From contig CM120640.1 in NCBI GenBank assembly GCA_051362555.1, positions 26,274,225 through 26,338,224 on the forward strand: a DNA stretch of 64,000 nt, written 5' to 3'. The first letter of the stretch is position 1. The number at the start of each line of letters is the position of its first letter. The notes beneath the pieces were generated by a model. It saw nothing but the letters and a program-made list of their open reading frames with translations, had not been told where the DNA came from and searched no databases. This document shows positions 7,601 through 64,000 of this stretch, piece by piece. Origin of the DNA: Lingula anatina. Taxonomy: Eukaryota > Animalia > Brachiopoda. Made by a program: the position numbers and the translations under genes.

Positions 7601-9045
7601 GCAAAACAGCCTTTTTTCTATAGTAAAAAGGAAAGTAAATTATAGAATAATTACCAAATTGTATATCTCATGTTTACCATGCTTGAACCCCATTGACTGA
7701 AGTAGAGACCATTAACTATAAGATTTTGGCTGTAGTAATTTGGATGAAAGGAAAAGGTGAAATTACATTTGGCATCAATGTTTCATAAGAATAGGCAAAA
7801 TTTGATGTTTTGTGTCATTAATGAGAACCAATTCTTTTAAATTAAATATTGATTTTATTAAAAATTTTGATATACCTCAGTACTGTTATTTATGTGGCAC
7901 AATATTTTCAGTTTCATCTACTTTCAAACAGGTTGTGCTGGGTTTGTTGTAAACTCTGAAAAGAAATTACTGGTAATACAGGAAAAGTACCATGTTCAAA
8001 AAACGTGGAAGTTACCTGGTGGAATGGCTGATACAGGTATGGGCGCATATAGCATACAGATTTGGTTAGTACTAAGAATTGAAGTTACATTGTGTTCATA
8101 TCTATGTGGTATTTTATGACCCTGAACAATTTTATTGTGCTTGATGTGATATTAAAATACCAACCATTCTAGATTAAATCATCAACAATGTTAGAAAGAT
8201 ATTTCTTTTCCAAAACAATGAATATATGTTTGTCTGAAGACAAGACTTAAAATATATGCTAAAAGCTTTTTTATCCTACATGTTTTTTAAAGGAGTTGCA
8301 AAATAAGCATCTAAATTGGCCACTGACTGAAACCTTATTTAAAAGATGAAATATTCAAAATTTGCCTGTGAAATTTTATGAAAAAAGCATATATGTGTGT
8401 TCCATAGATGTCATAAAATTAAACATTCCATGCACCTACTAGGTGAAGACATTGGTGAAGCAGCAGAGAGGGAAGTGTTTGAAGAAACTGGGGTACGCTG
8501 TAAATTTCAGTCAATAATTTGTTTCCGACATCAACACAAGTTTCGTCATGGATTGGATGACTTCTACTTTATCTGCCTAATGGTGCCTTTGTCAAAGGAA
8601 ATAACCAAGTGTGACAGGGAAATTTCTGCCTGCTGTTGGATGGATGTAAGTGGCACAGCTTTGCAGTATTTTTTTGCACATTTAAGAGGTGAGAAATGTA
8701 AACATAAACTAGAATGGAGTACAGATTTGAAATTTGGAGTTTACAGGTTTCAACATTTGTAGAGGAGAGAAAATGGTGTATGCTTTAGTCAGGATAATAT
8801 TACCTGTTTATGATTTGTTTTGGCATTTCCAGTTAGATGAATATATCAACCATCCAGATGTAAGCCATACCAACAAAAGGTTTGCCCAATGCTACCTAGA
8901 TATGATAGACAGGAAAGAAAAGCTATCAATACAACCAACTGTTGTTCCACATTTCTCAGGAACCAAGAATGACTTGCTTTATAGTATGCTACCGTTTCCT
9001 GACACTAGTAGTAGCAGTAGTAGTAGCCAAGAACAAAAACAGTGA
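4645..9045 (+). CDS. NUDT6: Nudix hydrolase 6-like, complete, 278 aa
   Basis: Exons 4645-4688, 5309-5382, 6657-6748, 7401-7506, 7932-8036, 8443-8645, 8833-9045; all GT-AG and phase-consistent (837 nt). N-domain RDRYDGV..RGVWVKIP..YNHAKPSYVMMTRWLP..IPPYANQYLG; intact Nudix box GGMADTGEDIGEAAEREVFEETGV. Confidence 0.93.
5439..6424. mobile_element. Non-autonomous PIF/Harbinger-like DNA transposon (986 bp) in NUDT6 intron 2
   Basis: Perfect 34-bp TIR GGCCACACTTTTTTATTTTTATGGATGACATCCT (5439-5472 / 6391-6424); TTA TSD on both sides; subterminal GCACCGATTTTCG near both ends; no transposase ORF. Confidence 0.85.
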
Positions 9046-17283: not shown

Positions 17284-17327
<44 letters not shown>

Positions 17328-17470
17328 AAAGAAAAAGAAAATTATAGAATATTTTTTATTCAACTATTATGTACAATTTTGAATATTTACAGTTGATTTA
17401 AAAAGGACTAATAATCAGTAATGAACTACGTAAACGTAATGAATTAATACATAGCAGTATTATCAAAAGT

Positions 17471-17730
17471 TCTAAGATTTTCCATCGTCTTCATCTAGCG
17501 TCGGAACGCACACAGTCCGATAATGCAGGTCTTGTGGTCGGAAACTGGTACCAGATGCTCTCGGGCCGTGGGGAAAAACCCGTCTAAACCCTTCGTGGGG
17601 AATGCCGGGAAAGTGCCCACGCCCGGATAATTCGGTCCTTATAACATGACAAAATCGGTTTCTATTGGCACGGCGCTGCGTACAGTTCAAGAATCGTCCC
17701 GTTTTAGACAGCATTGTGTGACGGAATAAC
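17471..17730 (+). ncRNA. Second CpG-rich structured domain
   Basis: Stems 17471-78/17701-08, 17497-503/17671-77, 17540-49/17654-63 and 17562-72/17616-25, again with plus-strand G.U pairs. Confidence 0.35.
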
Positions 17731-19989
17731 CTTTGCCTTGACTAACTATTCTCTATATATACTATACACGAGGTGAAGCCTAAAAACTTATTAAAGTAAT
17801 TCTTACAGAAAAAGGCACTGAAGCCAATAAAAAACTAACAAGAGACATAACAATTAAACAGAATCATTTTGACTTTATCTTGGAGAATTAAAACCATAAA
17901 TAAAGTTAATCATTTTACAACTGCAAGCATCTTTCAAAACTTTATTATAGTTCTCTTTATGATAAAATGCAAACAGATTCAAGTAATATAATTATAACTC
18001 GGGAAAATCAAGGATTTCAACTAAACTTTGATATATAATTCGACTTAAAATACCAGGTTTTTAAAATGTAACTTTGCACTGAAATCGCAACTACCTGCAT
18101 GATACAAGTACAGAATAAAGAAAGCTTGCTTCAAAATATTTCGGATCTCACATTACACTGTATGACCGCCCATGTAAATTTCAATCTGAATTTTTTTTGA
18201 TCCGGAGAAAAGGTGCATTTGTGATGAAGTGGATGTATTTGTCAACTATAACACTTGAGAAAATCTGAATATTAGTAATGTGATCTCTATCTTGAGAGAT
18301 GACAGCATCTCTCAAGAAGAGCAGACTGTACAAAAAATATAATGAAATATTTTCTCACACGTAAAATATTTCATTACAGATTTTGCACAATCTATCAATG
18401 TAAAATCTCTTCATGTAAAAGCGTTTACATGAAGTCAGATTTTACAAAGATGTGAGGGTTTGTTAGTAAGGTTAGTGTGCAGGTTAAGACCTTTTCAAAT
18501 GCCATACTGACAAACAACTCCACATCATCAAAAGCACAAATTTGAAAAATGACCATCTCAGATTGAAACAAAACACAGACGACCACAAGTGGTGGGAATG
18601 TTTTTGTGAGCAAAAAACTATCTGCATTCAGAATGTGGATAAAGCAACTCTATATTCAAATTTATTAATATAATAATTATAGCAACTGTAGAGGTAGACT
18701 TTTCCTACAGAAGCACACATCTTATTCAATTGATCTTGTATGGAATGAAGAATTATCTTGAACCTCAGTTTTCTCTTCTGTTATTGAAATAAAATGGTTC
18801 ACTGCATAAGGCATAAAATACAAATGAAATTTGATGCAATTTCACCTGACATGTTTGTAATCCATGAACCCCAAATATTCTCAGTATCCAAAAGACATAT
18901 ATTATTAGACTGTATTCCCACTACATTCAGTACTGTATATTGCCTTCATTACCATTCCACATTCTTTATATTTGTTTGCAGAACAAGCCGTGTCCTTCAA
19001 CACCAAAACTCGTGGGATGTCCGAACATCCATGAAAGTGTCCACAGGGCTCCTTGCTAACGCTGTACAGTGTTCAACATCTTGGACATTTGGTCTTGTGT
19101 CGACGTTATCTGACATCATGCAGGCGTAATTATTGGAAAACTCCCAATTCGTAGCCTACAAATGAAATCCAACTTTTACTCAAAAGTATGAAAAGCTATA
19201 TCGAAAGCTTGCAGTACCTGCAACAAAGAAAGTATATCACTGGTATTTACACACCGTTAACATTAATGATAAGTTTGGTTCTTAAAATGATCAGAGCGTT
19301 ATTTCCAAATGTACAGTGAAATATGCTTCCTTTATTGAAATATATATATTAACTTTTTAGAGTAAGTAGACAGCAGTCTTCAAAAAATAAATTATTTCAA
19401 ACATTTGACAAAAAAGTAAGAAAAGATGTTGCTATATTGAATATTGTAATGTTAGCCTACATGTTAAATTGTTGACCGTCTGTGCTACTTCTAATTCTAC
19501 TGTTTGTTTACATAGGATATAGTTTTTGATCACTGTCAATAATAAGAAACGCCATAATACACCAATAATAATACTTAAAAAATTCAGAACCACTTTTCTT
19601 AAGTTGTTGATCCCCAATAACTTACAAAGTTATCTGTATAAAGATCCCTCAATCCTGAAGAAGTGTTTCATCTGGAGGTTTGGTAGTTGCAATCTTCATT
19701 TTTAGTATCCACCACTTTTGGTAGCCTGCAAATTTAAATTATTACTTCAAAATGTAATAAAAGTCAACCATTTGTATATGAAATGTGTTTTTAAAGTTTC
19801 AGCAGTTTGATGGGAAATAAATATCAAAAGCACTTTTGTCACAAACTTGGAAAAAACATTCAAGCGAAATATTTTGACATGCCACTGGCGACCTTCAGAC
19901 TTCATGTCACAATGGGGTATTGCACAAATTCGTTTTAACGAAGGAAAAGGAACACTAACAGCATTCAAACGACTCTACTCAAAGACAAG

Positions 19990-20320: not shown

Positions 20321-20403
20321 ATTAATACTCACTTCTACGGTGGCCTTTTATTACCACAACCACAGCACTGGAGGTGGGGGTGGTAGCTGCTAGTATACAA
20401 TTT

Positions 20404-20772
20404 CTGGACCAGTGACAACGTCCCGGAGTCACATTGGTGGCGGTGGGTGTTGGGGGCGATAGCTCCAAGTAATCTGGACCAGTAACCACGCCCTGGAGTC
20501 ACATTGGTGGTGGTGGGTGGTGGGGGCGGTAGCTCCAAGTAATCTAGACCACTGACCACGCCTCGGTGTCACATTGTTGGTGGTGGGTGGTGGGGGCGGT
20601 AGCTCCAAGTAATCTGGACCACTGACCACGCCTCGGAGTCACATTGGTGGTGGTGGGTGGTGGGAGCTGTAGCTCCAAGTAATCTGGACCAGTGACCACG
20701 CCCCGGAGTCACATTGGTGGTGGTGGGTGGTGGGGGCGGTAGCTCCAAGTAATCTGGACCATTGACAACGTC
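20404..20772. repeat. 70-bp G/C-skewed minisatellite, ~5.3 copies
   Basis: GGAGTCACATTGGTGG recurs at 20425, 20495, etc.; unit contains GGTGGTGGTGGGTGGTGGGGGCGG. Confidence 0.95.
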
Positions 20773-22225
20773 CTGCAGAATATTGAGACTGTTGAGGATC
20801 TGAAAGTTGACGAATGGCATGTCAAAATATTTTGTATGAATGATAAGGTTTTTCCACATCTGTGGCAAATTAAAAGAGCTTTTTACCTGTGAAAAATGAG
20901 CACTGAATTTGCTAGAGTAAATTGTAAATGGAAAACAAATGCCTGCACCGAGTGACAGGTCCCAAACATTCTTAAAACAATTGTCTAAGACCTTGCACAA
21001 AATGCTCAGTTTGTTGGAGTTGCACTGATAAAAGATTTGTATTATCTATCTATGAATGACAATCTAGTTCATTTACCCTTATCCTGTCCCACAACTTACC
21101 TTGAATGCTCTCTAATCACAACTATTGAAGGGCTCTTGAAACACTATATGATATAGCTGACACGGCTTTCTCCATTTTAGCCTTGTTAACCTTGTTAAAA
21201 TGGACCGTCATCAGGACAGGCGCTCGCCAATGCTATCTGCCTCAACTACAAAATAAAAAAAAATTATAAGTCAAAAGTTTCCCTCTTTACTTCTCCCACC
21301 CAAATCCAATCTACTAACCATAAATATCTTAATCCTAGGAGTGGGTCATGGGTAAAAGACATTGCCTTCTGAATTTGAGCTGTCAAATTAATGTGGCTAA
21401 CGGTTTTTAGTTTTTCAAGGTATGAAAAGTCACTTAAATGTTTTGTTTTCCCCAAAAAACATGAGTGATATGTACCTTTTAAGGGTTTCCATCTCTGTGA
21501 AACGCCATATGCTTCTGATGCTCCCCCATGCAGCCCCCTAACATACAGACCATGGCAGGACTCAACCATGCACCAAGGATTGAATGTGACCCTCTTCTTG
21601 CACCCCTTTCAAAAAAGCGGGACTTTATCAGGAATTGCCCTAATTGAGTTCTGTAAATAGAAAGGAAAATTTGATTAGTTTTCAAAAATTGTATATCAAA
21701 AGCAGACTGCAGCCAGAAAAATTGTTGGAATCGGTAGATTTCCAGAATGTGTCAATTTGGTGACATGGCTGTTAGATTTTTTCTATAAGTATGAAAAAGA
21801 GCTTTTGATTTATTTTAAATGTAACTGTTACATCATGATTCGAGAAAAATGTCAAGGTCTTGTTAATACAAATATTAATGCAATCCAGTCTAGTCCTATT
21901 GAACTTTGTATTCGAACCAGTGAATCAAGATTCAGACATCTATATCTAGTTTTTAGGAAAGAAGGTGGACTGAATGGCCAGTAGGGTGAAAAGTTTATGG
22001 CATAGACTGCTGCTGAAAAATTAATTTTAGTGTATTGTTCTCGCCAGTAACACGGGTTACCTTGCAGGTTTTTCCGCCTCAGTGAAACACCATATGCTTC
22101 AGACGCTTCTCCAATGCAGCCTCCTCAACAGACCGTGGCAGGACTCACTGGCACCAAGGATTGAGGGATGTATCGGAAGTGTGCACGTGGCCCTCTTCTC
22201 CTTGCAGTTGCCATGAAACGTTGGA

Positions 22226-23040
22226 CAGGACTCGCTGGACGCTTCCTAGTGCAGCCACCTCGTAGACAGACCATGGCAGGACTCGCTGGACGCTTCCCCA
22301 GTGCAGCCACCTCGTAGACGGACCATGGCAGGACTCGCTGGACGCTTCCCCAGTGCAGCCACCTCGTAGACGGACCATGGCAGGACTCGCTGGACGCTTC
22401 CCCAGTGCAGCCACCTCGTAGACGGACCATGGCAGGACTCGCTGGACGCTACCCAAGTGCAGCCACCTCGCAGATAGACCATGGCAGGACTCGCTGGACG
22501 CTTCCCCAGTGCAGCCACCTCGCAGATAGACCATGGCACGACTCGCCGGACGCTTCCTTAATGCAGCCACCTCGTAGACAGGCCATGACAGGACTCGCTG
22601 GACGCTTCCCCAGTGCAGCCACATCAAAGAGACGGACCATGGCAGGACTCGCTGGCACCAAGGAATGGTCAAAGTAGCTTAAGTGTAGATGTGGGACGTC
22701 TCCTTGCAGTTGTGTTCTGTCAACAGAAAGAAAAATGAATTAATGACTTTTCATACTATGTCAGCACTCTGCAGTCAGGCTTACCTTTAAGTGGTTTCCA
22801 TCTCATTGAAACACCACATGACAAGACTCGCTGGACGCTTCCCCAGTGCAGCCACCTCGTAGACGGACCATGGCAGGACTCGCTGGACGCTTCCCCAGTG
22901 CAGCCACCTCGTAGACAGACCATGGAAAGACTCGCTGGACGCTTCATCAGTGCAGCCACCTCGTAGACAGACCATGGCAGGACTCGCTGGACGCTTCCCC
23001 GGTGCAGCCACCTCGTAGACAGACCACGGCAGGACTCACT
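22226..23040. repeat. 52-bp minisatellite in two blocks (~8 copies 22226-22660; ~4 copies 22824-23040)
   Basis: Unit CGTAGACGGACCATGGCAGGACTCGCTGGACGCTTCCCCAGTGCAGCCACCT, period 52 (22261, 22313, ...); diverged single copies near 22100-22160 and 21520-21580. Confidence 0.95.
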
Positions 23041-23100
23041 GGCTCCAAGGGATGGTCGAAGTAGCTTAAGTGTAGATGTGGGGTGTCTCCTTGCAGTTGT

Positions 23101-24808
23101 GTCCTGTAAACAGAAATAAAAACGAGATTAGATTTCTTTCATTTCTCAAACCCCCCTTCCAAAAAGAAAAAAGATTACATACCTTAAGGAGTGTAATCGA
23201 AGTCCCACAGGTGGCGCCCATCATCTTCTATGTCCTGTAAACAGAAATAAAAACGAGATTAGATTTCTTTCATTTCTCAAACTTCCCTTCCAAAAAGAAA
23301 AAAAGATTACATACCTTAAGGAGTGTAGTCGAAGTCCCACAAGTGGCGCCCATCATCTTCTATGTCCTGTAAACAAAAAATAAAAACGAGATTAGATTTC
23401 TTTCATTTCTCAAACCCCCCCTTCCAAAAAGAAAAAAGATTACATACCTTAAGGAGTGTAGTCGAAGTCCCACAGGTGGCGCCCATCATCTATGTCCTGT
23501 ATACAGAAATAAAAACGAGATTAGATTTCTTTCATTTCTCAAACTCCCCTTCCAAAAAGAAAAAAAAGATTACATACCTTAAGGAGTGTAGTCGAAGTCC
23601 CACAGGTGGCGCCCATCATCTTCTATGTCCTGTATACAGAAATAAAAACGAGATTAGATTTCTTTCACTTCTCAAACTCCCCTTCCAAAAAGAAAAAAAA
23701 AGATTACATACCTTAAGGAGTGTAGTCGAAGTCCCACAGGTGGCGCCCATCATCTTCTATGTCCTGTAAATAGAAATAAAAACGAGATTAGATTTCTTTC
23801 ACTTCTCAAACTCCCCTTCCAAAAAGAAAAAAAGATTACATACCTTAAGGAGTGTAGTCGAAGTCCCACAGGTGGCGCCCATCATCTTCTATGTCCTGTA
23901 AACAGAAATAAAAACGAGATTAGATTTCTTTCATTTCTCAAACTCCCCTTCCAAAAAGCAAAAAAATTGCATACCTTAAGGAGTGTAGTCGAAGTCCCAC
24001 AGGTGGCGCCCATCATCTTCTATGTCCTGTAAACAGAAATAAAAACGAGATTAGATTTCTTTCATTTCTCAAACTCCCCTTCCAAAAAGAAAAAAAAGAT
24101 TACATACCTTAAGGAGTGTAGTCGAAGTCCCACAGGTGGCGCCCATCATCTATGTCCTGTAAACAGAAATAAAAACGAGATTAGATTTCTTTCATTTCTC
24201 AAACTCCCCTTCCAAAAAGAAAAAAAGATTACATACCTTAAGGAGTGTAGTCGAAGTCCCACAGGTGGCGCCCATCATCTTCTATGTCCTGTAAACAGAA
24301 ATAAAAACGAGATTAGATTTCTTTCACTTCTCAAACTCCCCTTCCAAAAAGAAAAAAAAAAGATTACATACCTTAAGGAGTGTAGTCGAAGTCCCACAGG
24401 TGGCGCCCATCATCTTCTATGTCCTGTAAACAGAAATAAAAACGAGATTAGATTTCTTTCACTTCTCAAACTCCCCTTCCAAAAAGAAAAAAAGATTACA
24501 TACCTTAAGGAGTGTAGTCGAAGTCCCACAGGTGGCGCCCATCATCTTCTATGTCCTGTAAACAGAAATAAAAACGAGATTAGATTTCTTTCATTTCTCA
24601 AACCCCCCTTCCAAAAAGAAAAAAAAGATTACATACCTTAAGGAGTGTAGTCGAAGTCCCACAGGTGGCGCCCATCATCTTCTATGTCCTGTAAACAGAA
24701 ATAAAAACGAGATTAGATTTCTTTCATTTCTCAAACCCCCCTTCCAAAAAGAAAAAAAAGATTACATACCTTAAGGAGTGTAATCGAAGTCCCACAGATG
24801 GCGCCCAC
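23101..24808 (-). repeat. ~132-bp tandem array, 13 copies, each a 52-nt exon plus ~80-nt intron
   Basis: AAG|GTATG donors at exon ends 24770, 24637, 24504, 24372, 24237, 24108, 23975, 23844, 23712, 23578, 23448, 23315, 23183; each intron has a CTAAT branch site, pyrimidine tract and TACAG acceptor. Confidence 0.95.
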
Positions 24809-25191
24809 CAGTTTGCAGTCTGCTTCCTGGACCTGTAATAAAAAGAAACCTGGAAAGCATGGGAATGTGCAATGACACTACGACTCCAGCCCACGACAGC
24901 AAAAAGGTGAAGTATCCTGCGAAGATGACCGAGCGACGATTCCTCGTGGGGAGAAGCGAAGATTTTAGCTGGCCAGCTAAGAGAAACGCCGAATCCACCG
25001 TCTTTACGTCTGCGTGTGCAGGGAACAATATGTCGAAGAGCGATGCGTTGACGTAGGATGAGTAGAAGATTGGGAGAAATGGGAGTCGACTCCCGTGTCC
25101 TTTGTTCTTGATACAGGGCGCAGCACATGGCATCCGTCCTGTTGCTCTAGATCTGTCCGCTGTTGAGAGAACGCACTTTTAAAATTTTGCG

Positions 25192-25250
25192 CTTTTATAC
25201 CTTTGTTGACGTATAGTCACATGATGGCGTTCATGTTGTCACCAATGGTC
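25192..25250 (-). promoter_or_regulatory. TATA-box promoter for the lncRNA candidate
   Basis: TATAAAAG at 25199-25192, with nearby E-box CATGTG, CGCCAT and CCAAT motifs, at the edge of a CpG-rich island. Confidence 0.5.
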
Positions 25251-25761
25251 AACTTGTTCAAAGGGGATGGCCTTTGATAGTGATGCGCAAAGTTGGTAAT
25301 AATATCTTATCAACATATACATTTTCTTTTATATTTTATACTTTGATTATTCTGCCTGTCAGTTTGTTTATAATAAGAGTAATAAGTTCTAAGCAATGTC
25401 TGTGAAATGTGCAGGCAAATTTGATGAAAATTTCTGAGCAACATACCTTCTCCCTAAAATTTTTATAGGTACGATGTCCGTTAAGCTGGTAGCTGTGAAC
25501 TTCTCGCAGGCTACTTTAGCGTGCGTGTATTTGAACACTGATCCAAAATGTGGATAATGTAATTTGGCGTAGGGTGACTGCATTTTTGAGGCAGCCTGAG
25601 GGAGTATGGTTGTTCTGATTGTAGTGAATTGTAGAGAGACAATTGGAAGTACACTGGGCTTAGCATGTTCAGTCACCCAAGTACTCTGAAACACATTTTG
25701 TAATCAGCTGACTTGTTATTCTGAAAAATGAAAAAACAAATTATATTGATTTACAATCTGC

Positions 25762-26085
25762 AAGATAGAAGCAGTGGATCATATTACTTATGCCAGGCAG
25801 AAGAAACGACTGAATGTATATTTTTATATTCAAAACGTCTACTGATTTAGGTAATAATTAATAGCCTGGAAGATAGCAGCAGTGGATCATATTACTAATG
25901 CAAGGCAGAAGAAACGAGTGAATGTATATGTCTATATTCAAAACGTCTACGGATTTAGGTAATAATTAATAGCCTGGAAGATAGCAGCAGTGGATCATAT
26001 TACTAATGCAAGGCAGAAGAAACGAGTGAATGTACCTGTATATGTCTATATTCAAAATGTCTACTGATTTAGGTAATAATTAACA
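25762..26085. repeat. 108-bp tandem repeat, 3 copies
   Basis: GATAGCAGCAGTGGATCATATTACT at 25872 and 25980, with a diverged copy at ~25764. Confidence 0.9.
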
Positions 26086-26918: not shown

Positions 26919-29283
26919 TCTGAATCACGTGAACGTTATCAAGTGTCATAAGGCGTACATTACGAAAATATTTAGGTCTTGGAACGTGATTTGATGACTT
27001 TTTTAAATGCATGTATATACAATTATAAATTTATAATTAAGTTATTTAATATCAAATTATAAGTTCTGACCGAGTTTTAAAATTTATTTTAGGAGGGGTA
27101 AAAAACCCCAACCCCATCTAATATATATTGGATACATCCGTAGGCCTTTGTCCTTAGAACTAGGCGTACAAAATGTGTCTTCTAGCTAAAGTTATTATTA
27201 TGGTGTACGTGTAATTTAAAAAACTACGTAAGAGTGACAATAGGTCATGTGTTTCGAATGCACCCCCACTCTCCGATCAGACATTACTTTTGTATAATTC
27301 ACAGTCCATCTTCGTTGTAGTTTGTGACTTAATGTCATTTCTTAGTGAAGCGGTGTTGTCCTCAATTTACCTTAAATGTCCAAATTACTAAGAAGAAACC
27401 ACTTGCAAGAATTATAAGGCTTTTTATACTGCTAGGTCTATATATGTAGACGTGATACACACGATATTTTGCAACCCCACAAAATCTGTTTCTTAAAATT
27501 TTGGTTCCACCACAAAGCTTAGCACTATCATTCTTTTTTGCTTTATTGATATATTTTCAGTACATAAATAACCATTGTCTGTTGCCCAATTTTGCACAAA
27601 ATTAAGATAATCCCCAAAACCTCATTAATTGTGTTTCCTCCATCCCAAAAAATATTAAAAATTTCTCCTCATAATTTAGTAGTGCACTGGCATCTACACA
27701 GTACATAAATGTATCATTATAATAACATCTTGTTCTTACTGATAACATAATTAGCTTAATTCCATAACAATTCTAAAATGTTAATAACAATGAAAATTCA
27801 AAGTAGATGGCAAGATTCTTATTGTGCTGATAAAGATAAAATATGTAAATTCAATACTGATTAGGTACTGTATACTGGCTCATTGAAAAAAGGGAACCAT
27901 TTCACAAAAAAATTAAGCTTAGACTGCTTAATCTGGATAGCCAACTATACAAAGTCAACTTTGCAATATTGTCTTACAACTACAATTTTTTAAGAATGAT
28001 TGGTCCACAGTTGATGAGTAGAATATACATAAATGGGCTACTGACACCACTGCAAGTAAAAGACTTGCCAAGACAATCAAAATGTAAATCAAAGGAAAGT
28101 GAAAAGAAAGTAAAAAGACTGGAAAAAATGAGGCAAAATTGATAACTTGGTTAATGAGCGAACAATACTCTAGTTTTGATTAAATCAGAACTTTTCTTGC
28201 ACCTACATCTGTATTTTTATTTTTGCCATTTTGTAAGTGAAAAAAGGGGAATAGGGGATTGGTGTAGTGAAAGCCCAACCTTAACCTTTGGATGCTATTC
28301 TCATTAAACATATGCATAAAAGACAAAATTTAGACCACAAATAGATTCATGCAATCTACCAACCTTTTTTACAGTGAGTCATTGCAACTTATCAGTTATT
28401 TCTGGCCTAGGCTATCTGTAAGATTCTTACAACTGTGAAGTGCAACTTAGCCAGCTAAGTCTTTATAGGCTCAGATTTTAGACTACAAACCAACTTCAAA
28501 CATTTAGTAAAGCAAGTGCCAAGAATAGTTAGTTTGAAGGCTCTGCCTCCCCATAGAGTGAGAACAAACACAGTCACACTGTATGATACATTACAGAAAA
28601 CATTGGTTAAAAATATACTCTGGAATTTTACATTTTCACTAGTATAGAATCAATTTGATTTCTAAAACTGACTTATTATAAAAATACTCCTGTCAATTTA
28701 AAACTTTTTCATAAAGCATATCTGAAATACACTGATAAAATGTTATTAAAAATATTAAAATTTGATATTCACAGATAAAATAGGCTCAAGTCAAAATGAT
28801 TAAGACAATTATTGAAGCATTATTCAAACCCCAATTTTGATTATTTTCATACAATTAGTGATTCACAAGTTTTTTAACAGAGTTGTACCTAATCTGACTA
28901 CATGATATCTATCAAAATCTCTCTAAAATCAAGTGACAAAAAATGCCCACAGTTTCAAGCACCATAAAATATGGCTTAAGTAAGTAATATCCTCAATTGT
29001 TTCATAATAAACGTCATGTCACTTGAATGTACCATTCTCCAGAAAAAAAGATGAACTTGCAAGGTTTGATAAGTCTGCGTTTACAGGTAGATGTCATAGT
29101 TTAATATACATGAGGCAGCGTGGTCAACAATATTATATTATATCAGTTTCTCTAGCCTCCATGTCTTATTCGTCATAATATTTTGATTTTCAAATTCAGG
29201 GTCCCCTAGTAAAAGATCTTGCATTTCTTCTTGATCACAGAAGAATCTGAGTTGAGAATACAGTTGAGAATACAGAGTTAAAA

Positions 29284-29389
29284 TTAGGCCTCTCCTCTCC
29301 ACTCGGGGTCCTCTTGCAACTGAACCTGGCTGACATCCATGGTTACATCTTGAAAAATAATATATTCCCAAAAAAGTTTAAATGGTGCA

Positions 29390-29424
<35 letters not shown>

Positions 29425-31324
29425 TAAAATCAATAAATCTTGGACACATTACTTGTCGTACGTCTGAATAACATGACAGACAAGAAGAAAATAGTTGCTC
29501 TTGAAAATGGACTTTAAGTAATGAAAATGCAAGATGACAGCTAGTAGATAGTACATGTGCATGCAATTTATTTGAAATTCTGACTTTTCAGTCCTAATGA
29601 TTTAGATTATTTATAGCCAATAATCTGAGAAAATAAAATATTCAACAGAGAAATTGATTGCAATAAATCCTGCTCGTACATGACTGCTTAATATTCACTG
29701 CAACAAACCTCTCTACGACATCGTCGAGCTGATCAGTAGGGTCATCGTAATCACATCCTGTGTACGCTTTTTTCTCGAGGCAGTACTTAAGGAAACTACA
29801 CCAAAGAGAAGTTGAAAATAAAGAAAGAATTGCCTACTTTCTTTTGTCTTTCTGTATGGACTTTCATTCACAATAAAAGAAAGAATTCCCTAGTAGACAC
29901 TATTTTGTCTGTCAGTTTGGAGTTTAATTTACATGTTTTTTAACTTTCCTTTTTTTTTCTATTTTTTTTTTTATTTAACAGTCTGTCTGAACTAAAACAT
30001 GATAGCTTTCTCTTTTTAATCTTTCTATCCTCTTTGTTTTTTTTTTTTTTTGTCAGTCTGTCTGAACAAACATTAAAAATTTAATTTATGAACTTAATTA
30101 AATCCTTAACATTTCTTTTTTTGTTGGTCTGTCTGTCTGTCTGAACAAGAGTTCTTAGAAACAATGAGATTAAATAAAGATTAAATAAAGGAAAAAAATC
30201 TTGAACCTAACATGGCTGATCTGTGTTTGGTTTGAAAAAGTCTTATAATTTGATTGAACTTTTTTTGCTTACTGATCAAATAAATTAAAATAATTCACTT
30301 CACCTGTTCCAATGTTCATCTTGCGAAAGAAGAAACGGATTCCCTACAACAATCAATAGGGCCTTTGCTCTTGTGATCGACACATTAAACCTCTGAAAAA
30401 AAATTAATCCCACATGTAACTGTATGTGCGGGTGAACACTGAAGACAGTATAGTCTGAGACTAACTGTTCATATCTCTTCTGTGAATTCCGCATCACATG
30501 GCATAGTCTCCGCAGTGCCATAGTGGAAAGAAATGGTGATGAAAATAGTATGGACTCTAGCTGTTTAAATAACCTTACATTTCAAAATATGTGTGTGCAC
30601 ATCCACATGTACAAAGTCTTATGAATTATGTGTTCAAGCATATACACATGCCACAGCACAATCATGGTAATGACACTATCTTTTCAATGGGCAAAAATTA
30701 TCAAACTTTCAAATGTATACCTTTATAAACACATAAAGTATATAGTATTAGTGGTACTCTTACTGCACAGATTAGAACTATAGAGTAGCTTACTTTTTTA
30801 TTCTGTTGTGACCATCCAATAGGAATTGGGTAGGAGTATTAAAATTTTAAAAATTAATGGCCTAAAAAATACCGCATCTGTAAAATTCACGATTTCCCCC
30901 CCACTGAAAAAAATCAAGTTATTACCATATGCTGAGGTGGCACTAGCAATTTTTTCTAAAGCCAAATTACTACTTTTTCATCACTTTTTTCTCCAAAATG
31001 GTTTAAATTTGACTAAAATAAGTCAAATCAACCCTATTTTGTTTAGCCAATTGAAGTCAGTTTTAGCATTTGGCTTAATTGGGCAGTGTTAACTCTACCC
31101 CAGTTTGTGTGTCCACATGCATAAGTGTACAAATGACTGACCTTTGGGTTCTTTAAAAAGCCCTTTAAAAGTATCATACAAGCGTCCAGAGCCAGGTAAT
31201 CGGGGTTACTCCTCACGGTGGAGACCATGATGACCCGTCTCTCCTGACCCTGAAATTCCTCCACACTGCCCACCTTTATGTCCCGAAAGTTTTTCTTGAA
31301 CAGCAGTTGCTTCAGTTTTTGAAC
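29284..31324 (-). pseudogene. MOV10: 5'-truncated MOV10 RNA helicase gene fragment (last four coding exons, 150 aa, frame intact)
   Basis: Exons 31324-31142, 30392-30304, 29795-29680, 29348-29284. Encodes SF1 motif V (KVGSVEEFQGQE), [26 protein letters not shown] (motif VI), FLKYCLEKKAYTGC and C-terminal QEDPEWRGEA* (cf. MOV10 EPEWRNEL). No upstream helicase exons seen before the tomosyn 3' end. Confidence 0.8.
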
Positions 31325-31463
31325 CTGTGGAGAGAATAAAAAGGGATGTCTGTGCATTTACAGGCCCGTAACCAGCAATTTCAAAAGGGGGATTATTTTT
31401 CTGAAAAAGTGGACCTTTTTCCATAAAAACTTTGAGAAAAAATTAAAAAGGAAAACATAACAA

Positions 31464-36840: not shown

Positions 36841-38494
36841 AAAGTTGTGAGAACAGAGCCATATAGCACAAAGGTGTTGTATACATGCTGAAAAAAGTGA
36901 AAAAACAGCATTACTTCCCTAAAAATGACCCGATGATGCTGATTTTCAAACTTGACCTGCGTATTATGAATATTCATTAGTTCTGCAAGTTTCAAACCAA
37001 AAGGTTAAATGGTTTTCCACTTATCGTGTTATCGGTGCTGCATACATGCTGAAAAAAGTGAAAAACAGCATAACTTCCCTAAAAATGACCCAATCATACT
37101 GATTTTCGAACTTGACCTGCGTATTATGAATATTCATCAGTTCTGTAAGTTTGAAACCAAAAGGTAAAATGATTTTTCACTTATCATGTTATCAGTGTTG
37201 CATATATGGTGGAAAAAGTGAAAAACAGCATAACTTCCCTAAAAATGACCCAATCATACTGATTTTCGAACTTGACCTGCGTATTATGAATATTCATCAG
37301 TTCTGTAAGTTTGAAACCAAAAGGTAAAATGATTTTTCACTTATCATGTTATCAGTGTTGCATATATGGTGGAAAAAGTGAAAAACAGCATAACTTCCCT
37401 AAAAATGACCCGATCATGCTGATTTTCGAACTTGACCTGCGTATTATGAATATTCATCAGTTTTGTAAGTTTCAAAGAAAAAGGTAAAATGGTTTTCCAC
37501 TTATCTTGTTATCGGTGCTGCATATATGCTGAAACAAGACAGCACTGTTCTGCAATGGGTTTACTTCCATTTTTAAAACACTTTTTTAACATAAAACAAA
37601 ATAAACAGTTTTCTACCATTTGTATATGATCAACTAAGAAAAAAAATTGATGAGATGGGAAAAATATCAATAGAACAGTGTTAAATGTCCAATTTCCTCC
37701 ATTCTGAGATAATGAATATAGTAGATGATTGAATCTGACAAACTGCAATGATATTTGTTTATTTCCATTTTTGACACTTTATAACATAATACACAATAAC
37801 AAGTTTACCATCATTTTTACATAATCAACTAACAATGTTATTAAGATGCAGGAAATGTCACACAAACACTTTTACGTATCTTATTAGTTCAATAATGAGA
37901 CTGTTTATATGCCTAACAATTGAATCTGAGGAAATGTAAAAAAACAGCATAACTTCTAAAAGAATGGCCCGAATATGCTGATTTTGGAACTCAACCTGCG
38001 TTTTAGTTAGTTTGACTACTCCTGTGAGTATAATGACAATTGGCCTATCTGTTTTTCTTATATTGTGTTATTAGCATTGCATATATGTTGAAAGAAGTGA
38101 AAAAACAGCATAACATCCCTAACAAGGCAGCAAAGCTGTCAAATGTACAGACAAAAAACAGGAAATAACTATGCACAAAATAGGCTACTGTCAATTCTGA
38201 TGCAAAAACACATTATGTTAAACTGCAAATTCAACATCAAATTTTAATTATCCTCAACAGGTAATACCAATGTAATTAAAATATGTGACAAGTTTACACT
38301 TTGAAAATGTATAACTTCCAGAAAAAGAAGTCACTTAGACTGCTTTTCCAACTCAGACTGCATTTTAGTCCTGTATTTCTTTTTTGAAAGTTTGGCAATC
38401 ATAAGTAACATGGTTTTCCCATAATGGTCATCATGGCAGCAGCACCCAAAATTGTGTTTTCTTCTAATCTGATGCAATATTACATAATGGTTAA

Positions 38495-38674
38495 AACGGG
38501 GGCGTCTCGATAGTCCGAAGGTTCATTGGGCCGAAGGTTCATTGGTCCGAAAAGTGGTAACATTTTCATCGATTTTTTAATCAAGGGTTCATTGGTCCGA
38601 AGGTTCTATAGTGAACATTCGGACCAATGAACCTTCGGACTATTGAACCTTCGGACTATCGCTACGGCCCCCAC
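38495..38674. mobile_element. 180-bp foldback-type element with TIRs built from tandem 15-mers
   Basis: (GTCCGAAGGTTCATT)n facing (AATGAACCTTCGGAC)n; interrupts the satellite consensus with TTAA on both sides; a related fragment lies at ~4759-4790. Confidence 0.7.
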
Positions 38675-41600
38675 TTAACAGCATAATGACCGTCAATTTT
38701 TAATAATAAAATACACATATCATGGATTTTCACAAAATGTGACTAGCATGGGTCTTCAAGCCCGTGGAACTTCAAAGTCACACCTTGAAAATGCCAATAT
38801 GTGAAAAATTAAATTTTCACAAAATAACTCTTTAACTGGCAGTAAGAATTACCAAACAGACTGTATTTCCTACTGAAGCTGTATTTTAGTCCCATGTTTC
38901 TTTCCTATAAGTTTGAGAACAGTAAATGACATGGTTTTTCTTAAATGGTCATCATGGGAGCAGTGCCCAAAATAGTTTTTTTTTCAAATTTTGATGCAAT
39001 ATTACATAATGTTTAACAGCATAATGACCATCAACTTTAATGGATATTCAGAAAATGTGAATAGCAAAGGTCTTCAGGCTCATGGAACTTCAAAGTCACA
39101 ACTTGAAAATGCCAAAATGTAAACGAGACAGCACTGTTCTGAAATGTTTTTTTTTTTTTTTTCATTTTTAACAATTTTTAACATAAAACAAAATTAACAG
39201 TTTTCTGCCGTTTTTATATGATCAACTAAGAAAATTGATGAGATGGGAAAAATATCAACAGAGCAGTGTTAAATGTCCAATCTCTTCCATTCTGAGATTC
39301 TGAACATAGTGAATGATTGAAACTGACAAACTGCAATGATATGAGTTTATTTCCATTTTTGAAACTTTATTAGACAATACACGATAACAACTTTACCATC
39401 ATTTTTACATAATCAACTAATAATGTTGTAAAATTGCAGGAAATGCCAAACAAACACTTTTACGTATCTTATTAGTTCAATAATGAAACTGTTTACATGC
39501 CTAAGAATTAAATCTGAGGAAATGTGAAAAAACTGCATTTCTTTAAAATAATGGCCCGATTATGCTGATTTTTTAACTTAACCTGCGTTTTAGCAGGAAT
39601 GACCACTCCTGTGAGTTTAATGACAATTGGCCTATCTGTTTTTCTTATATTGTGTTTACAGTGTTGCATATATGCTGAAAAGTGAAAAAAAAAAGCATAA
39701 CTACTAAAATAGTGGCCCGATCATGCCGATTTTCGAACTTGACCTGCATTATAGTAAGATCGATTACTCCTGTGAGTTTCATGACAAAAAGCTTATCGGT
39801 TTTCCTTGAAATGTGTTTACAGTGTTGCATATGCTGAAAAGTGAAAAAACAGCATAACTTCTACATTAATGGCCCGATCATGCTGATTATCGAACCTGAC
39901 CTGCATTTTATGAATATTCATCAGCTCTGTAAATATACAGCCAAAAAGTAAAACTGCCTTCCACTTATCGTGTTTACAATGAAAGTGCATGGCGCCGGCG
40001 ACAGCGACAGTGACGGCAACGACGGTGACGACAGACGCAGGTGATGGCAATATGTACAGACACATCTGTACATATTAACTGTACTGTTTGAGAACAGTAA
40101 GTGGCATGGTTTTTCTTAAATGGTCATCATGGGAGCAGGGCCCAAAATAGGTTTTTTTCAAATTTTGATGCAATATTACATAATGTTTAACAGCATAATG
40201 ATCATCAATTTTTAATAATAAAATATTAGTATCATGGACAAATAGTAAACGTGACTAACAAAGGTTTTTAGGCCGCTGGAACTTCAAAGTCACGCCTTAA
40301 AAATGCCAAAATGTAAACAAGACTGCACTGTTCTGAAATGGGTTTATTTCCATTTTTAACACTTTTTTAACATAAAACAAAATTAATAGGTTATTGCCAT
40401 TTTTATAAGATCAACTAAGAAAATTGATGAGATGGGAAAAATATCAATAGAACAGTGTTAAATGTCCAATTTCTTCCATTCTGAGATTCTGAACATAGTG
40501 AATGATTGAATCTGACAAACTGCAATGATATGAGTTTATTTCCATTTTTGACACTTTATTACACAATACAAGATAACAAGTTTACCATCATTTTTACATA
40601 ATCAACTAACAATGTTGTAAAGATGCAGGAAATGTCAAACAAACACTTTTACGTATCTTATTACTTAAATAATAAGGCTATTAACATGCCTAAGAATTAA
40701 ATCTGAGGAAATCTGAGGAAATGTGAAAAAACAGCATAACTTCTAAAATAATGCCCCGATTATGCTGATTTTCGAACTCAACCTGCGTTTTAGTAAGACT
40801 GACCATTCCTGTGAGTTTAATGACAGTTGGGCTTTCTGTTTTTCTTATATTGTGTTTACAGCGTTGCATATATGCTGAACAATGAAAAAACCGCATAACT
40901 ACTAAAATAGTGGCCCGATCATGCTGATTTTCGAACTTGACCTGCGTTTTAGTAAGATTGATTACTCCTGTGAGTTTCATGACAACAGGCCTAACGGTTT
41001 TCCTTAAAATGTGTTTACAAGGTTGCATATATGCTGAAAAGTGAAAAAACAGCATAACTTCTACAATAATGGCCCGATCATGCTGATTTTCGAACTTGAC
41101 CTGCGTTTTATGAATATTCATCAGCTCTGTAAATATAAAGCCAAAAAGTAAAACTGCCTTCCACTTATCGTGTTTACAAGGAAAGTGCACGGCGACGGCA
41201 TCGGCATCGGCATCACCATCGGCGACGGCGACGACAGACGCAGGTGATGGCAATATGTACAGACACATCTGTGTCTGTACATAAAAATGACCCAATCACG
41301 CTGATTTTCGAACCTGACCTGCGTATTATGAATATTCATCAGTTCTGTAAGTTTCAAGCCAAAAGGTAAAATGGTTTTCCACTTATCGTGTTATCAGTGC
41401 TGCATATATGCTGAAAAAAGTGAAAAAACAGCATAAATTCCCTATAAGTAACCCGATCATGCTGATTTTCGAACTTGACCTGCGTCTTATGAATTTTCAT
41501 CAGTTCTGTAAGTTTCAAGCCAAAAGGTAAAATGGTTTTCCACTTATCGTGTTATCGGTGCTGCATATATGCTGAAAAAAGTGAAAAAACAGCATAACTA

Positions 41601-43719
41601 CCCTAAAAATGACCCGATCATGCTGATTTTCGAACTTGACCTGCGTATTACGAATATTCATCAGTTCTGTAAGTTTCAAGCCAAAAGGTAAAATGATTTT
41701 CCACTTATCGTGTTATCGGTGCTGCATATATGCTGAAAAAAGTGAAAGAACAGCATAAATTCCCTATAAGTGACCCGATCATGCTGATTTTCGAACTTGA
41801 CCTGCGTATTACAAATATTCATCAGTTCTGTAAGTTTCAAGCCAAAAGAAAAGACAGTTTTCCACTTATCGTGTTATCGGTAAAAGTGCACGGCGACGGC
41901 GACGACGGCGACAGCGACGGCGACGACAGACGCAGATGATGGCTATATGTACAGACACATCTGTGTCTGTACATAAAAAGGCATAACTTCACCAGAACTG
42001 AACCAATGGAGCTTATTTTCGAACTCCATCTGTATTTCAGTAAGACTGATCACCCCTGTAAATTTCAAGACAATTGGCCAATTGATTTTCCTTGAAATGC
42101 GTTATCGGTATTGAATACATGCTAAAAAAAGTGAAAAAACAGCATAACTTCCATAAAATGGGTCCAATCACGCTGATTTTCAAACTTGACCTGTGTATTA
42201 TGAATAGTCATCAGTTCTGTAAGTTTCAAGCCAAAAGGTAAAACGGTTTTTCACTTATCGTGTTATCAGTGTTGCATATATGCTTAAAAAAATGAAAAAA
42301 TAGCATAACTTCCATAAAATTGGCCCGATCATGCTGATTTTCAAACTTGACCTGCGTATTATGTATATTCATTAGTTCCATAAGTTTCAAGCCAAAAGGT
42401 AAAACGGTTTTTCACTTATTGTGTTATCGGTGTTGCATATATGCTGAAAAAAGTGAAACAAGGCAGCAAAGCTGTCAAATGTACAGACAAAAAACAGAAA
42501 ATAAAGACGCAAATAAGTGAAAAATCAAATTTTCACAAAAAACTGTTAAATTGCCAGAAAAATTTACCAAACAGACTGCGTTGCCTATTGAAGCTGTATG
42601 TTAGACCCATGTTTCTTTCCTGTAAGTTTAAGAACAGTAAGTGACATGATTTCCCTTAAATGGTCATCATAGGAGCAGTGCCCAAGATAGGGGTTTCTTC
42701 AAATTTTGATGCAACATTACATAATGTTTAACAATAAAATGACAATCAAATGTTATTAATAAAATATTAGTAACATGGACATTCAGAAAATGTGACAAGC
42801 AAAAGTCTTCAAGATCATGGAACTTTAAAGTCACACCTTGAAAATGCCAATATGTGAAAAATTAAATTTTCACAAAAAACTGTTTAACTGCCAAAAAAAA
42901 AAAAAAATACCAAACAGACTGCATTGCCTACTGAAGCTGTATTTTAGTCCTATGTTTCTTTCCTGTAAGTTTGAGAACAGTAAGTGACATGATTTTCCTT
43001 AAATGGTCATCATGGAAGCAGTGCCCAAAATAGGGGTTTCTTCAAATTTTGATGCAATATTACATAATGTTTAACAGCTTATCACAGATATTCAGAAAAT
43101 GTGACTAGCAAAGGTCTTCAGGCCCATGGAACTTCAAAGTCACACCTTGAAAATGCCAAAATGTAAACAAGACAGCACTGTTCTGAAATGGGTTTATTTC
43201 CATTTTTAACACTTTTTTAACATAAAACAAAATAAACATTTTACTGCCATTTTTATATGACCAACTAAGAAAATTGATGAGATGGGAAAAGTATCAATAG
43301 AACAGTGTTAAATGTCCAACTTCCTCCATTCTGAGATTCTGAACATAGTGGATGAATGCATCTGACAAACTGCAATGATATGAGTTTATTTCCATTTTTG
43401 ACACTTTATTACACAATACATGATAACAAGTTTACCATGTTTTTTACATAATCAACTAACAATGTTGTAAAGATGCAGGAAATATCAAACAAACACTTTT
43501 AGGCATCTTATTAGTTAAATAATGAGACTGTTAACATGCCTAATAATTGAATCTGAGGAAATGTGAAAAAAAAAAACAGTATAACTTCTAAAATAATGGC
43601 CCGATTATGCTGATTTTCGAACTCAACCTGCGTTTTAGTAAGATTGACCACTCCTGTGAGTATAATGACAATTGGCCAATCCGTTTTTCTTATATTGTGT
43701 TATCAGTGTTGCATTTATA

Positions 43720-44190
43720 TTGAAAAAAGTGAAAAAACAGCATAAATTCCCTAAAAGTGACCCGATCATGCTGATTTTCGAACTTGACCTGCGTATTATG
43801 AATATTCATCAGTTCTGTAAGTTTCAAGTCAAAAGGTAAAATGGTTTTCCACTTATCGTGTTATCGGTGCTGCATATATGCTGAAAAAAGTGAAAAAACA
43901 GCATAAATTCCCTAAAAGTGACCCGATCATGCTGATTTTCGAACTTGACCTGCGTATTATGAATATTCATCAGTTCTGTAAGTTTCAAGTCAAAAGGTAA
44001 AATGGTTTTCCACTTATCGTGTTATCGGTGCTGCATATATGCTGAAAAAAGTGAAAAAACAGCATAAATTCCCTAAAAGTGACCCGATCATGCTGATTTT
44101 CGAACTTGACCTGCGTATTATGAATATTCATCAGTTCTGCAAGTTTCAAGTCAAAAGGTAAAATGGTTTTCCACTTATCGTGTTATCGGT
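43720..44190. repeat. 161-bp satellite, homogeneous 3-copy block (further blocks at 36880-37530 and 41285-42455)
   Basis: CATAAATTCCCT at 43741, 43902, 44063 (period 161). Confidence 0.92.
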
Positions 44191-59909: not shown

Positions 59910-59944
<35 letters not shown>

Positions 59945-63900: not shown

Positions 63901-64000
63901 CTGAAACCATATATTATACAAATTAACAGTAATAGATATATAAGTTTCCATTTCAAGGTCAAGCTTCAAAATTCAGGCAGGAAAAACTGTAATTGAAAAA

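What the first reader, a model, noticed from the sequence alone, without database searches (positions are those of the whole stretch)
23101..24808. Tandem repeat whose unit is a complete exon plus intron: 13 near-identical splicing cassettes
Seen: each ~132-bp unit read on the minus strand is TACAG|52-nt exon|GTATG + ~80-nt intron with CTAAT branch point. Splice signals are intact in all 13 copies; variation is mostly homopolymer length, plus two 49-nt exon variants. The exon has stops in all three frames, so it is not a coding repeat. Inference: splicing would turn the genomic array into a clean 52-nt RNA repeat with an exon junction every 52 nt. This could give a length-tunable scaffold, identical excised introns, or circRNA ladders. 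The closest known analogies are repeat-exon lncRNAs such as FIRRE.
Basis: partly seen in the sequence, partly recalled or inferred. Interest (0 to 1): 0.85.

Follow-up and report, generated by a model that had tools for sequence, protein, structure and literature searches.

The report
Mostly unspliced exon-intron repeat in lncRNA
One small intron with bits of its neighbouring exons is copied 13 times head to tail inside a transcribed, spliced gene that likely makes no protein, in what is likely a brachiopod (Lingula); RNA reads show these copies are spliced only part of the time, so the RNA is likely a mixture of forms rather than a clean 52-base repeat, and no function is shown.

Summary
The array is real: 13 introns (79-83 nt) and 12 exons (ten of 52 nt, two of 49 nt) follow a 63-nt first exon on the minus strand. 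RNA reads show minus-strand transcription and the predicted exon-exon junction in 2 of 4 runs (7 and 8 reads; the other two runs had 2 and 0 reads in all). The junction is absent from the window's DNA. However, in the stranded poly(A) run most array introns are retained (about 6-16% spliced), while two of three downstream introns tested in the same gene are removed cleanly. The array lies in a multi-exon, repeat-built transcript (further 52-nt and 70-nt repeats) with no conserved reading frame. Two related gene models exist in Lingula anatina. The unit arose by tandem duplication of one intron with flanking exon pieces and grew by unequal exchange (a five-unit block is duplicated). Intact splice sites are expected by chance in so young an array (P 0.4-0.7). 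I found no small-RNA payload or unusual structure. Verdict: a compact, payload-free, mostly retained variant of repeated-exon noncoding genes (C19MC-HG, SNORD115/116 hosts, FIRRE); most likely a near-neutral expansion, possibly a detained-intron module.

The parts
24770..25170 (-). 5' region / first exon of the transcript, ending in the 63-nt exon-like piece (24832-24770) whose last 38 nt are the template of the repeated exon; CpG-rich; holds a 120-codon ORF (25133-24771) with no homologue
   Evidence: X1 depth 10-14 on the minus strand down from about 25170, 2 reads up to 25320; last 38 nt differ from the 52-nt exon at 2 places; ORF search blank; CpG o/e 0.78-0.92
23100..24807 (-). 132-bp tandem array: 13 introns of 79-83 nt and 12 exons of 52/49 nt; introns mostly retained, sometimes spliced
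   Evidence: junction reads and intron depth
22785..23103 (-). Exon D1 (319 nt): module with about 5 copies of a second, unspliced 52-nt repeat; its first 4 nt are the first 4 nt of the array exon
   Evidence: GT-AG signals; 5 X1 reads run from the last array intron into a D1-like start (loose end at 24685); boundaries predicted, not read
22061..22716 (-). Exon D2 (656 nt): two fused modules with about 10 copies of the unspliced 52-nt repeat
   Evidence: donor at 22061 read in 29 (X1) and 19 (X2) junction reads; collapsed repeat depth 188-227; 88.6% alike to D1; acceptor predicted
21476..21650 (-). Exon D3, an older copy of the same module (75-79% alike to D1/D2 ends)
   Evidence: junction 22061-21650 with canonical ends
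21100..21247 (-). Exon D4
   Evidence: junction to D5 in 30 and 30 reads; junction from D3 in 5 and 11 reads with that intron partly retained (depth 4-8)
20333..20799 (-). Exon D5 with a 70-nt tandem repeat (20403-20770, 5.3 copies); AATAAA at 20352 and a possible donor at 20333, so the 3' end is not fixed
   Evidence: collapsed depth 161-194
25470..25750 (+). Opposite-strand RNA beginning just upstream, suggesting a divergent promoter near 25200-25500 (inferred)
   Evidence: X1 first-mate-minus depth rising from 3 to 14

Best explanation
The array is a young tandem multiplication of one real intron inside a polyadenylated, multi-exon RNA that is likely non-coding, and its introns are spliced only in a minority of molecules, so the gene likely makes a ladder of partly spliced forms, most likely as a near-neutral by-product rather than a selected device. 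Shown: transcription on the minus strand, exon-exon junction reads, majority retention in X1, clean splicing of two downstream introns, lack of a conserved frame. Inferred origin: a duplication with breakpoints in the two exons flanking the original intron made a chimeric 52-nt exon (first 4 nt from exon D1, last 38 nt from the 63-nt exon); unequal exchange then expanded it, including a five-unit block duplication. Inferred mechanism of retention: 52-nt exons between 80-nt introns crowd adjacent spliceosomes, and a purine-rich mid-intron stretch can pair with the pyrimidine tract. Inferred fate: retained forms would stay in the nucleus, and fully spliced forms, with many junctions behind any stop, would be removed by nonsense-mediated decay.
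For: Junction reads 7 (X1) and 8 (X7) of 4 runs laid; no such 18-mer in the window, best match 4 mismatches. Intron depth 131-143 on the RNA strand against 2-4 on the other, so not DNA carry-over. Spliced share in X1 7/55 to 7/117, depth excess about 16%. Downstream junctions 29/19 and 30/30 reads with X1 intron depth 0. None of 105 ORFs at 17-27.5 kb reaches a Pfam cut-off; repeat periods 52, 49 and 70 are not multiples of 3; two Lingula gene models carry the same DNA module read in shifting frames. Five-unit periodicity of variants: one intron variant in units 2, 3, 7, 8 and the 49-nt exon in units 5, 10. No exon-versus-intron constraint after removing homopolymer artefacts, 2/52 vs 9/81, p 0.20. 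Pyrimidine tract predicted 0.31-0.43 unpaired in three array acceptors against 0.68-0.79 in the two cleanly spliced ones.
Against: The raw alignment count (2/52 vs 13/81) gave p 0.046 for exon constraint before I removed homopolymer columns by hand. The spliced share differs between X1 and X7 (p 0.001), which could be regulation, though libraries and probably alleles or loci differ. Expression is strongly sample-dependent (215 reads in X1, 42 in X7, 2 in X4, 0 in X5). One ordinary downstream intron is also partly retained. Helicase-gene acceptors span 0.40-0.78 unpaired, so the fold argument is weak. Short reads do not show that retained array and spliced 3' exons sit on one molecule. Longest ORFs (160-172 codons) lie a little above the 95th percentile of base shuffles (124-152), which I ascribe to stop-poor GC-rich repeats.
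Confidence: 0.55

Rival explanations
1. Functional detained-intron module: 13 identical, poorly spliced introns keep the RNA loaded with U1/U2 and splicing factors, holding it at its locus as an architectural RNA or sponge; splicing them would release or destroy it.
For: Selective retention of array introns beside clean downstream splicing in one run; consensus-like donor, branch and acceptor in every copy; different spliced share in X7; a family of related loci; precedent for tandem-repeat RNA that recruits splicing factors (LL2R, 10.64898/2026.03.19.712899, abstract read).
Against: No sign of selection in the array; mean pairwise divergence 2.5% points to a young age; modest expression (depth 10-30 in 6% of a run); localisation untested.
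Confidence: 0.2
2. One reading: the point is the spliced 52-nt repeat, the identical excised introns (a stable intronic RNA or mirtron) or circles.
For: Junction reads exist; an 81-nt intron of the EBV W repeat is a stable RNA (PMC3751371, passages); repeated-exon hosts give exon-length ladders (PMC2691840, passages).
Against: Splicing is a minority event in X1; intron fold z -0.16 with no end-to-end hairpin, exon z 0.57, three joined exons z -0.49; no Rfam match at E up to 1; no box C or box D motif in the intron (sequence).
Confidence: 0.08
3. A protein-coding gene: the 120-codon ORF that stops one base before the first donor is translated and the array is a junction-rich 3' UTR tuning decay; or the downstream modules code for a repeat protein.
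For: The ORF ends exactly at the first donor; NCBI models two related Lingula loci as uncharacterized proteins.
Against: No homologue for the 120-codon ORF among proteins of 66-210 aa; read variants in that frame are 5 silent, 14 replacing, 2 touching stops of 21, counted one at a time, and reads show 1-nt indels at 24839 and 25065; the two NCBI models are singletons of 147 and 108 aa that follow different frames through the same module.
Confidence: 0.07
4. The element acts as DNA: each exon carries a CTCF-like site on the plus strand, giving a cluster of 12 sites (insulator or boundary), with transcription incidental.
For: A recalled CTCF-like consensus matches 11 of the 12 repeated exons and the 63-nt exon at 2 mismatches; 17 hits in the window against 2.8 expected; P about 0.01 for one exon against shuffles.
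Against: Post hoc choice of one motif among hundreds; the copies count as one event; two mismatches in 14; the other repeats do not match (P 0.25 and 1.0); the motif is from memory.
Confidence: 0.05
5. The junction reads come from an intronless DNA copy or another locus, and this array is never spliced.
For: The tool gave no check of the joined form in DNA runs (table 5b); X7 reads differ from the window at many places and barely cover the unique downstream exons; one loose end joins the exon to an upstream sequence not in the window.
Against: The joint falls exactly at the predicted donor and acceptor; the same gene splices canonical introns in X1; an intronless copy would itself imply earlier splicing.
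Confidence: 0.05

Closest known systems
C19MC-HG (primate microRNA-cluster host; PMC2691840, passages read)
   Same: Non-coding transcript made of tandem exon-plus-intron units; repeated exons give an RT-PCR ladder in exon-length steps; completeness of splicing uncertain.
   Different: Units of 400-700 nt bounded by Alus with a microRNA in each intron; here 132 nt, no payload found, introns mostly retained, invertebrate.
SNORD115/SNORD116 host RNAs and rat Bsr/RBII-36 (PMC3413130, passages read)
   Same: Long non-coding RNAs of repeated exons with repeated introns.
   Different: Each intron carries a box C/D snoRNA; the 80-nt intron here has no C/D boxes and no Rfam match; imprinting and nuclear retention untested here.
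FIRRE and its RRD repeat (PMC4820808, passages read)
   Same: lncRNA in which one repeat makes up many exons (7 of 13 in human).
   Different: RRD copies are dispersed local repeats, not head-to-tail near-identical units; nuclear-retention function and hnRNPU binding are shown there and untested here; sequence relation was not tested and none is claimed.
EBV IR1 (W repeats) with ebv-sisRNA-1 (PMC3751371, passages read)
   Same: Tandem repeat containing exons and an identical 81-nt intron in every copy.
   Different: W exons code for EBNA-LP in frame, the unit also holds a 2791-nt intron, and the short intron is a proven stable RNA; not tested here.
LL2R tandem-repeat RNA of chicken oocytes (10.64898/2026.03.19.712899, abstract read)
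   Same: Single-strand transcript of a tandem repeat rich in splice signals and thought to be poorly spliced.
   Different: Excess of donors over acceptors, poor in poly(A) signals, shown to form condensates; here donors and acceptors are paired and the RNA is seen in poly(A) libraries.

Membership tests
Repeated-exon non-coding RNA (general kind) | Transcribed from one strand as a spliced RNA | tested here: met
   Stranded reads in X1 and X2; canonical junctions downstream
Repeated-exon non-coding RNA (general kind) | Repeated exons are joined by splicing | tested here: met
   7 and 8 junction reads in 2 of 4 runs; minority of molecules in X1; DNA control not given
Repeated-exon non-coding RNA (general kind) | No conserved protein-coding frame | tested here: met
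   no ribosome data, so by sequence only
Small-RNA host arrays (C19MC-HG, SNORD115/116-HG, Bsr) | Each intron carries a snoRNA or pre-miRNA | tested here: not met
   No Rfam match, no C/D boxes (sequence), no long hairpin; an undescribed small RNA is not excluded
Small-RNA host arrays (C19MC-HG, SNORD115/116-HG, Bsr) | Small RNA detected from the intron | not testable with these tools
   Only poly(A), oligo-dT or unspecified RNA-seq runs were listed
FIRRE-like lncRNA | Exonic local repeat dispersed over a long locus | tested here: not met
   Units here are contiguous 132-bp tandem copies; FIRRE repeats are discontinuous
FIRRE-like lncRNA | Repeat acts as nuclear-retention signal and binds hnRNPU | not testable with these tools
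   needs FISH, fractionation and binding assays
Mirtron | Intron folds end to end into a pre-miRNA hairpin | tested here: not met
   Two short local hairpins, -12.5 kcal/mol, z -0.16; definition recalled
Detained-intron RNA | Specific introns retained in otherwise spliced poly(A) RNA | tested here: inconclusive
   True at gene level in X1; same-molecule linkage not shown by short reads; definition recalled
Detained-intron RNA | Nuclear location and regulated post-transcriptional splicing | not testable with these tools
   share differs between X1 and X7 but samples are not matched
Coding exon-intron repeat (EBV W repeats; collagen-type exon arrays, recalled) | Spliced unit keeps an open frame | tested here: not met
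   52 and 49 nt are 3n+1; stops in all frames

The most novel reading that the evidence does not exclude
A brachiopod lncRNA family uses a copy-number-variable row of 13 identical detained introns as a tunable splicing-factor scaffold and timer: retained, the RNA nucleates a nuclear body at its locus; stage-specific splicing of the row collapses it to a 52-nt repeat and sends it to decay.
Probability: 0.17. Interest if true: 0.8.

Novelty: new variant of a known kind. Interest (0 to 1): 0.46.

Why it matters
It is a fresh, RNA-verified case of introns multiplying by tandem duplication inside a non-coding gene, and a natural experiment: 13 identical introns between 52-nt exons, with consensus splice signals, are mostly left in while other introns of the same gene are removed. 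That makes spliceosome crowding, order of intron removal and nuclear retention testable on a built-in ladder. Repeated-exon non-coding genes are described mainly in mammals and carry small RNAs; my searches found no report of a payload-free one in a spiralian. If the array is neutral, it is a neat but modest curiosity.

Tried and rejected
No whole genome is held for this window, so genomic paralogues and copy number could not be counted. The run search listed no indexed RNA holder, only 9 raw-read runs by species label; I laid 6 of the 9 (X1, X4, X5, X7 on 24637-25750; X1, X2, X7, X8 on 20700-22290). X5 gave no test and X4 2 reads. Transposon ends: no inverted terminal repeats among the 25 longest of 696 pairs shown for 9-36 kb (they were poly-A/T runs). 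Rfam: 0 matches at 14-30 kb. Pfam: 5 of 105 ORFs gave weak hits below cut-off, dismissed. Exon pattern in metagenome contigs: 0. A search with a putative tomosyn exon for taxon placement found nothing; the Nudix exon did. Nine of the 11 hits were not Lingula records; the four of them I read are unrelated sequences, mostly repeats cycling through frames. The protein-atlas look-up did not complete. Two loose-end motifs are not in the window. The lag-distance table was mis-scored and is not used. The sigma-70 scan is irrelevant to an animal and is not used. Homology of the array exon to downstream modules is weak: p about 0.004 for one of four module starts, not significant for the others. Earlier-finding look-ups by sequence and place were empty. 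The Lingula genome paper PMC13121700 gave no passage for six terms including lncRNA and tandem (main text only, supplements not seen, and they may hold annotation of this locus).

Full report
Observation. The repeat is as described: 23100-24807, period 132, 12.9 copies, 96% matches. On the minus strand a 63-nt exon-like piece (24832-24770) is followed by 13 introns of 79-83 nt and 12 exons, ten of 52 nt and two of 49 nt; the last acceptor opens a different exon at 23103. Joined exons have stops in all frames. A full donor-branch-pyrimidine-acceptor cassette occurs in 3 of 3100 other 132-base pieces of the window, so the cassette is not chance. Its perfect state in all copies is, however, expected: mean pairwise divergence is 2.5%, about 11 of 133 columns vary, and the chance that none hits GT/AG is 0.71, or 0.41 for ten core positions. 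Exon versus intron variation gave p 0.046 on the raw alignment and p 0.20 once homopolymer columns were removed by hand.

Organism and neighbourhood. A Nudix exon of the window is 95% identical to a Lingula anatina protein, the next hits being 56-65%, so the window is most likely from the brachiopod Lingula. Upstream on the minus strand lies a helicase gene with AAA_12 matches (I call it MOV10-like from recalled motifs) that appears to end near 29280. Between 17 and 27.5 kb none of 105 ORFs reaches a Pfam cut-off and Rfam finds nothing at 14-30 kb.

RNA evidence on the array. Nine raw-read RNA runs were listed. I laid four on 24637-25750, which holds one unit, so all copies collapse on it. X1 (stranded, poly(A)) gave 215 reads, X7 42, X4 2, X5 0. 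In X1 depth over the unit is 100-140 on the minus-strand RNA and 2-4 on the other, so this is RNA and not DNA carry-over. The exon-exon joint (24688 back to 24637) is read 7 times from 7 starts in X1 and 8 times from 4 starts in X7; four further X7 loose ends show the same joint behind a variant exon. The junction 18-mer is absent from the window's DNA (best match 4 mismatches); the tool gave no check in DNA runs. Unspliced reads dominate X1: intron depth is 131-143, 48 reads step from unit to unit through the intron, and 62 more cross the donor without a joint. The spliced share is 7 of 55 to 7 of 117, or about 16% by depth excess; in X7 8 of 12 to 8 of 26. Reads carry the copy variants at shares comparable to the reference, which argues against an assembly artefact.

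The gene around it. Minus-strand depth of 10-14 continues up to about 25170. Downstream (20700-22290; X1, X2, X7, X8) two introns are removed cleanly with canonical ends, 22061-21650 (29 and 19 reads) and 21100-20799 (30 and 30), with intron depth 0 in X1; a third (about 21476-21247) is spliced in 5 and 11 reads and partly retained. Exons D1 and D2 hold a second, unspliced 52-nt repeat (15 copies) and D5 a 70-nt repeat (5.3 copies); both are expressed (collapsed depth 160-230). D1, D2 and D3 are older copies of one module, 75-89% alike. The gene has therefore grown by exon-intron duplication at several depths, the array being the latest round. X7 and X8 hardly cover the unique exons and their reads diverge, so they may come from other alleles or loci. 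Two singleton NCBI models from Lingula anatina (LOC106164805, LOC106173768) carry the same module and the same D2-D3-type junction at about 76-78% identity, pointing to a small family; whether either is an allele of this locus cannot be told. Short reads do not prove that retained array and spliced 3' exons lie on the same molecule; five X1 reads do link the last intron to a D1-like start.

Coding potential. Repeat periods 52, 49 and 70 are all 3n+1. The 120-codon ORF that stops one base before the first donor has no homologue among proteins of 66-210 aa; of 21 read variants 5 are silent in its frame and reads show 1-nt indels in it. The NCBI models pass through different frames of the same DNA element. 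Longest ORFs of 160-172 codons slightly exceed base-shuffled controls (95th percentile 124-152); they run through GC-rich, stop-poor repeats. I read the RNA as non-coding, without ribosome data.

Origin and mechanism. The 52-nt exon shares its first 4 nt with D1 and its last 38 nt with the 63-nt exon (2 mismatches), and the TRF limits fall on these points. The simplest history (inferred) is one duplication of the intron with breakpoints in both flanking exons, then unequal exchange; variants repeat at a lag of five units. Retention is not due to poor consensus signals. Likely causes (inferred) are crowding on 52-nt exons and pairing of the pyrimidine tract with a purine-rich stretch: predicted unpaired fraction 0.31-0.43 in three array acceptors against 0.68-0.79 in the two cleanly spliced ones, but 0.40-0.78 in three helicase-gene acceptors, so this is a hint only. 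From general knowledge, poly(A) RNAs with retained introns tend to stay nuclear (PMC6199362 and PMC10158996, search listing only) and RNAs with junctions far behind a stop are decay targets (recalled). No unusual structure was found in exon, intron, unit or concatemers.

Comparison. Non-coding genes built from repeated exon-intron units are known: C19MC-HG (passages), the SNORD115/116 hosts and Bsr (passages), and, with dispersed repeats, FIRRE (passages). EBV W repeats release an identical 81-nt stable intron (passages). This locus shares the layout but fails the payload test, is far more compact and is mostly unspliced. Searches combining Lingula or brachiopod with lncRNA, repeated exons with non-coding RNA, and exon-intron unit or minisatellite terms (the last returned 0 papers) showed no description of this locus or of a spiralian equivalent; the library lacks most subscription journals. 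Unchecked notes of this scan report similar arrays in fungi and another animal, so the layout may arise repeatedly.

Verdict. Real, transcribed and spliceable; a new variant of a known kind. Most likely a young, near-neutral intron multiplication in a repeat-built lncRNA (0.55), with a functional detained-intron scaffold as the main rival (0.2). Interest 0.46.

Noticed in passing
window 22226-23042 (-): A second, unspliced repeat with the same 52-nt period, nearly stop-free in all three frames; unrelated in sequence to the array exon (p 0.65) and folding worse than shuffles (z +2.55 for three copies), which could mean an exposed binding motif.
   Followed up: partly
window 20403-20770 (-): 70-nt C-rich repeat in exon D5, highly expressed when collapsed, with length variants in reads; AATAAA at 20352.
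   Followed up: partly
window 25470-25750 (+): Plus-strand RNA in X1 rising towards 25750, divergent from the repeat gene and heading for a 108-bp x3 repeat (25758-26083); CpG o/e above 1 at 26-27 kb.
   Followed up: no
window 24694 and 24908 (loose ends): Reads join the array acceptor, or the 5' exon, to sequence not found in the window: likely paralogous loci or structural alleles.
   Followed up: partly
   Followed up: no
window 36873-44190: Several tandem arrays of a 157-161-bp unit, with ACGGCG-type short repeats beside two of them, probably inside introns of the helicase gene; looks like a satellite or miniature mobile element.
   Followed up: no
window 17285-17740: A 57-base A run beside a GC-richer 250-bp block, possibly the end of a retroposed element.
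   Followed up: no
window about 29280-31360 (-), 7870-9045 (+), 55900-63960 (-): Ordinary flanking genes: an AAA_12 helicase (MOV10-like, name recalled), a Nudix hydrolase and a tomosyn-like gene (name recalled, not confirmed).
   Followed up: partly
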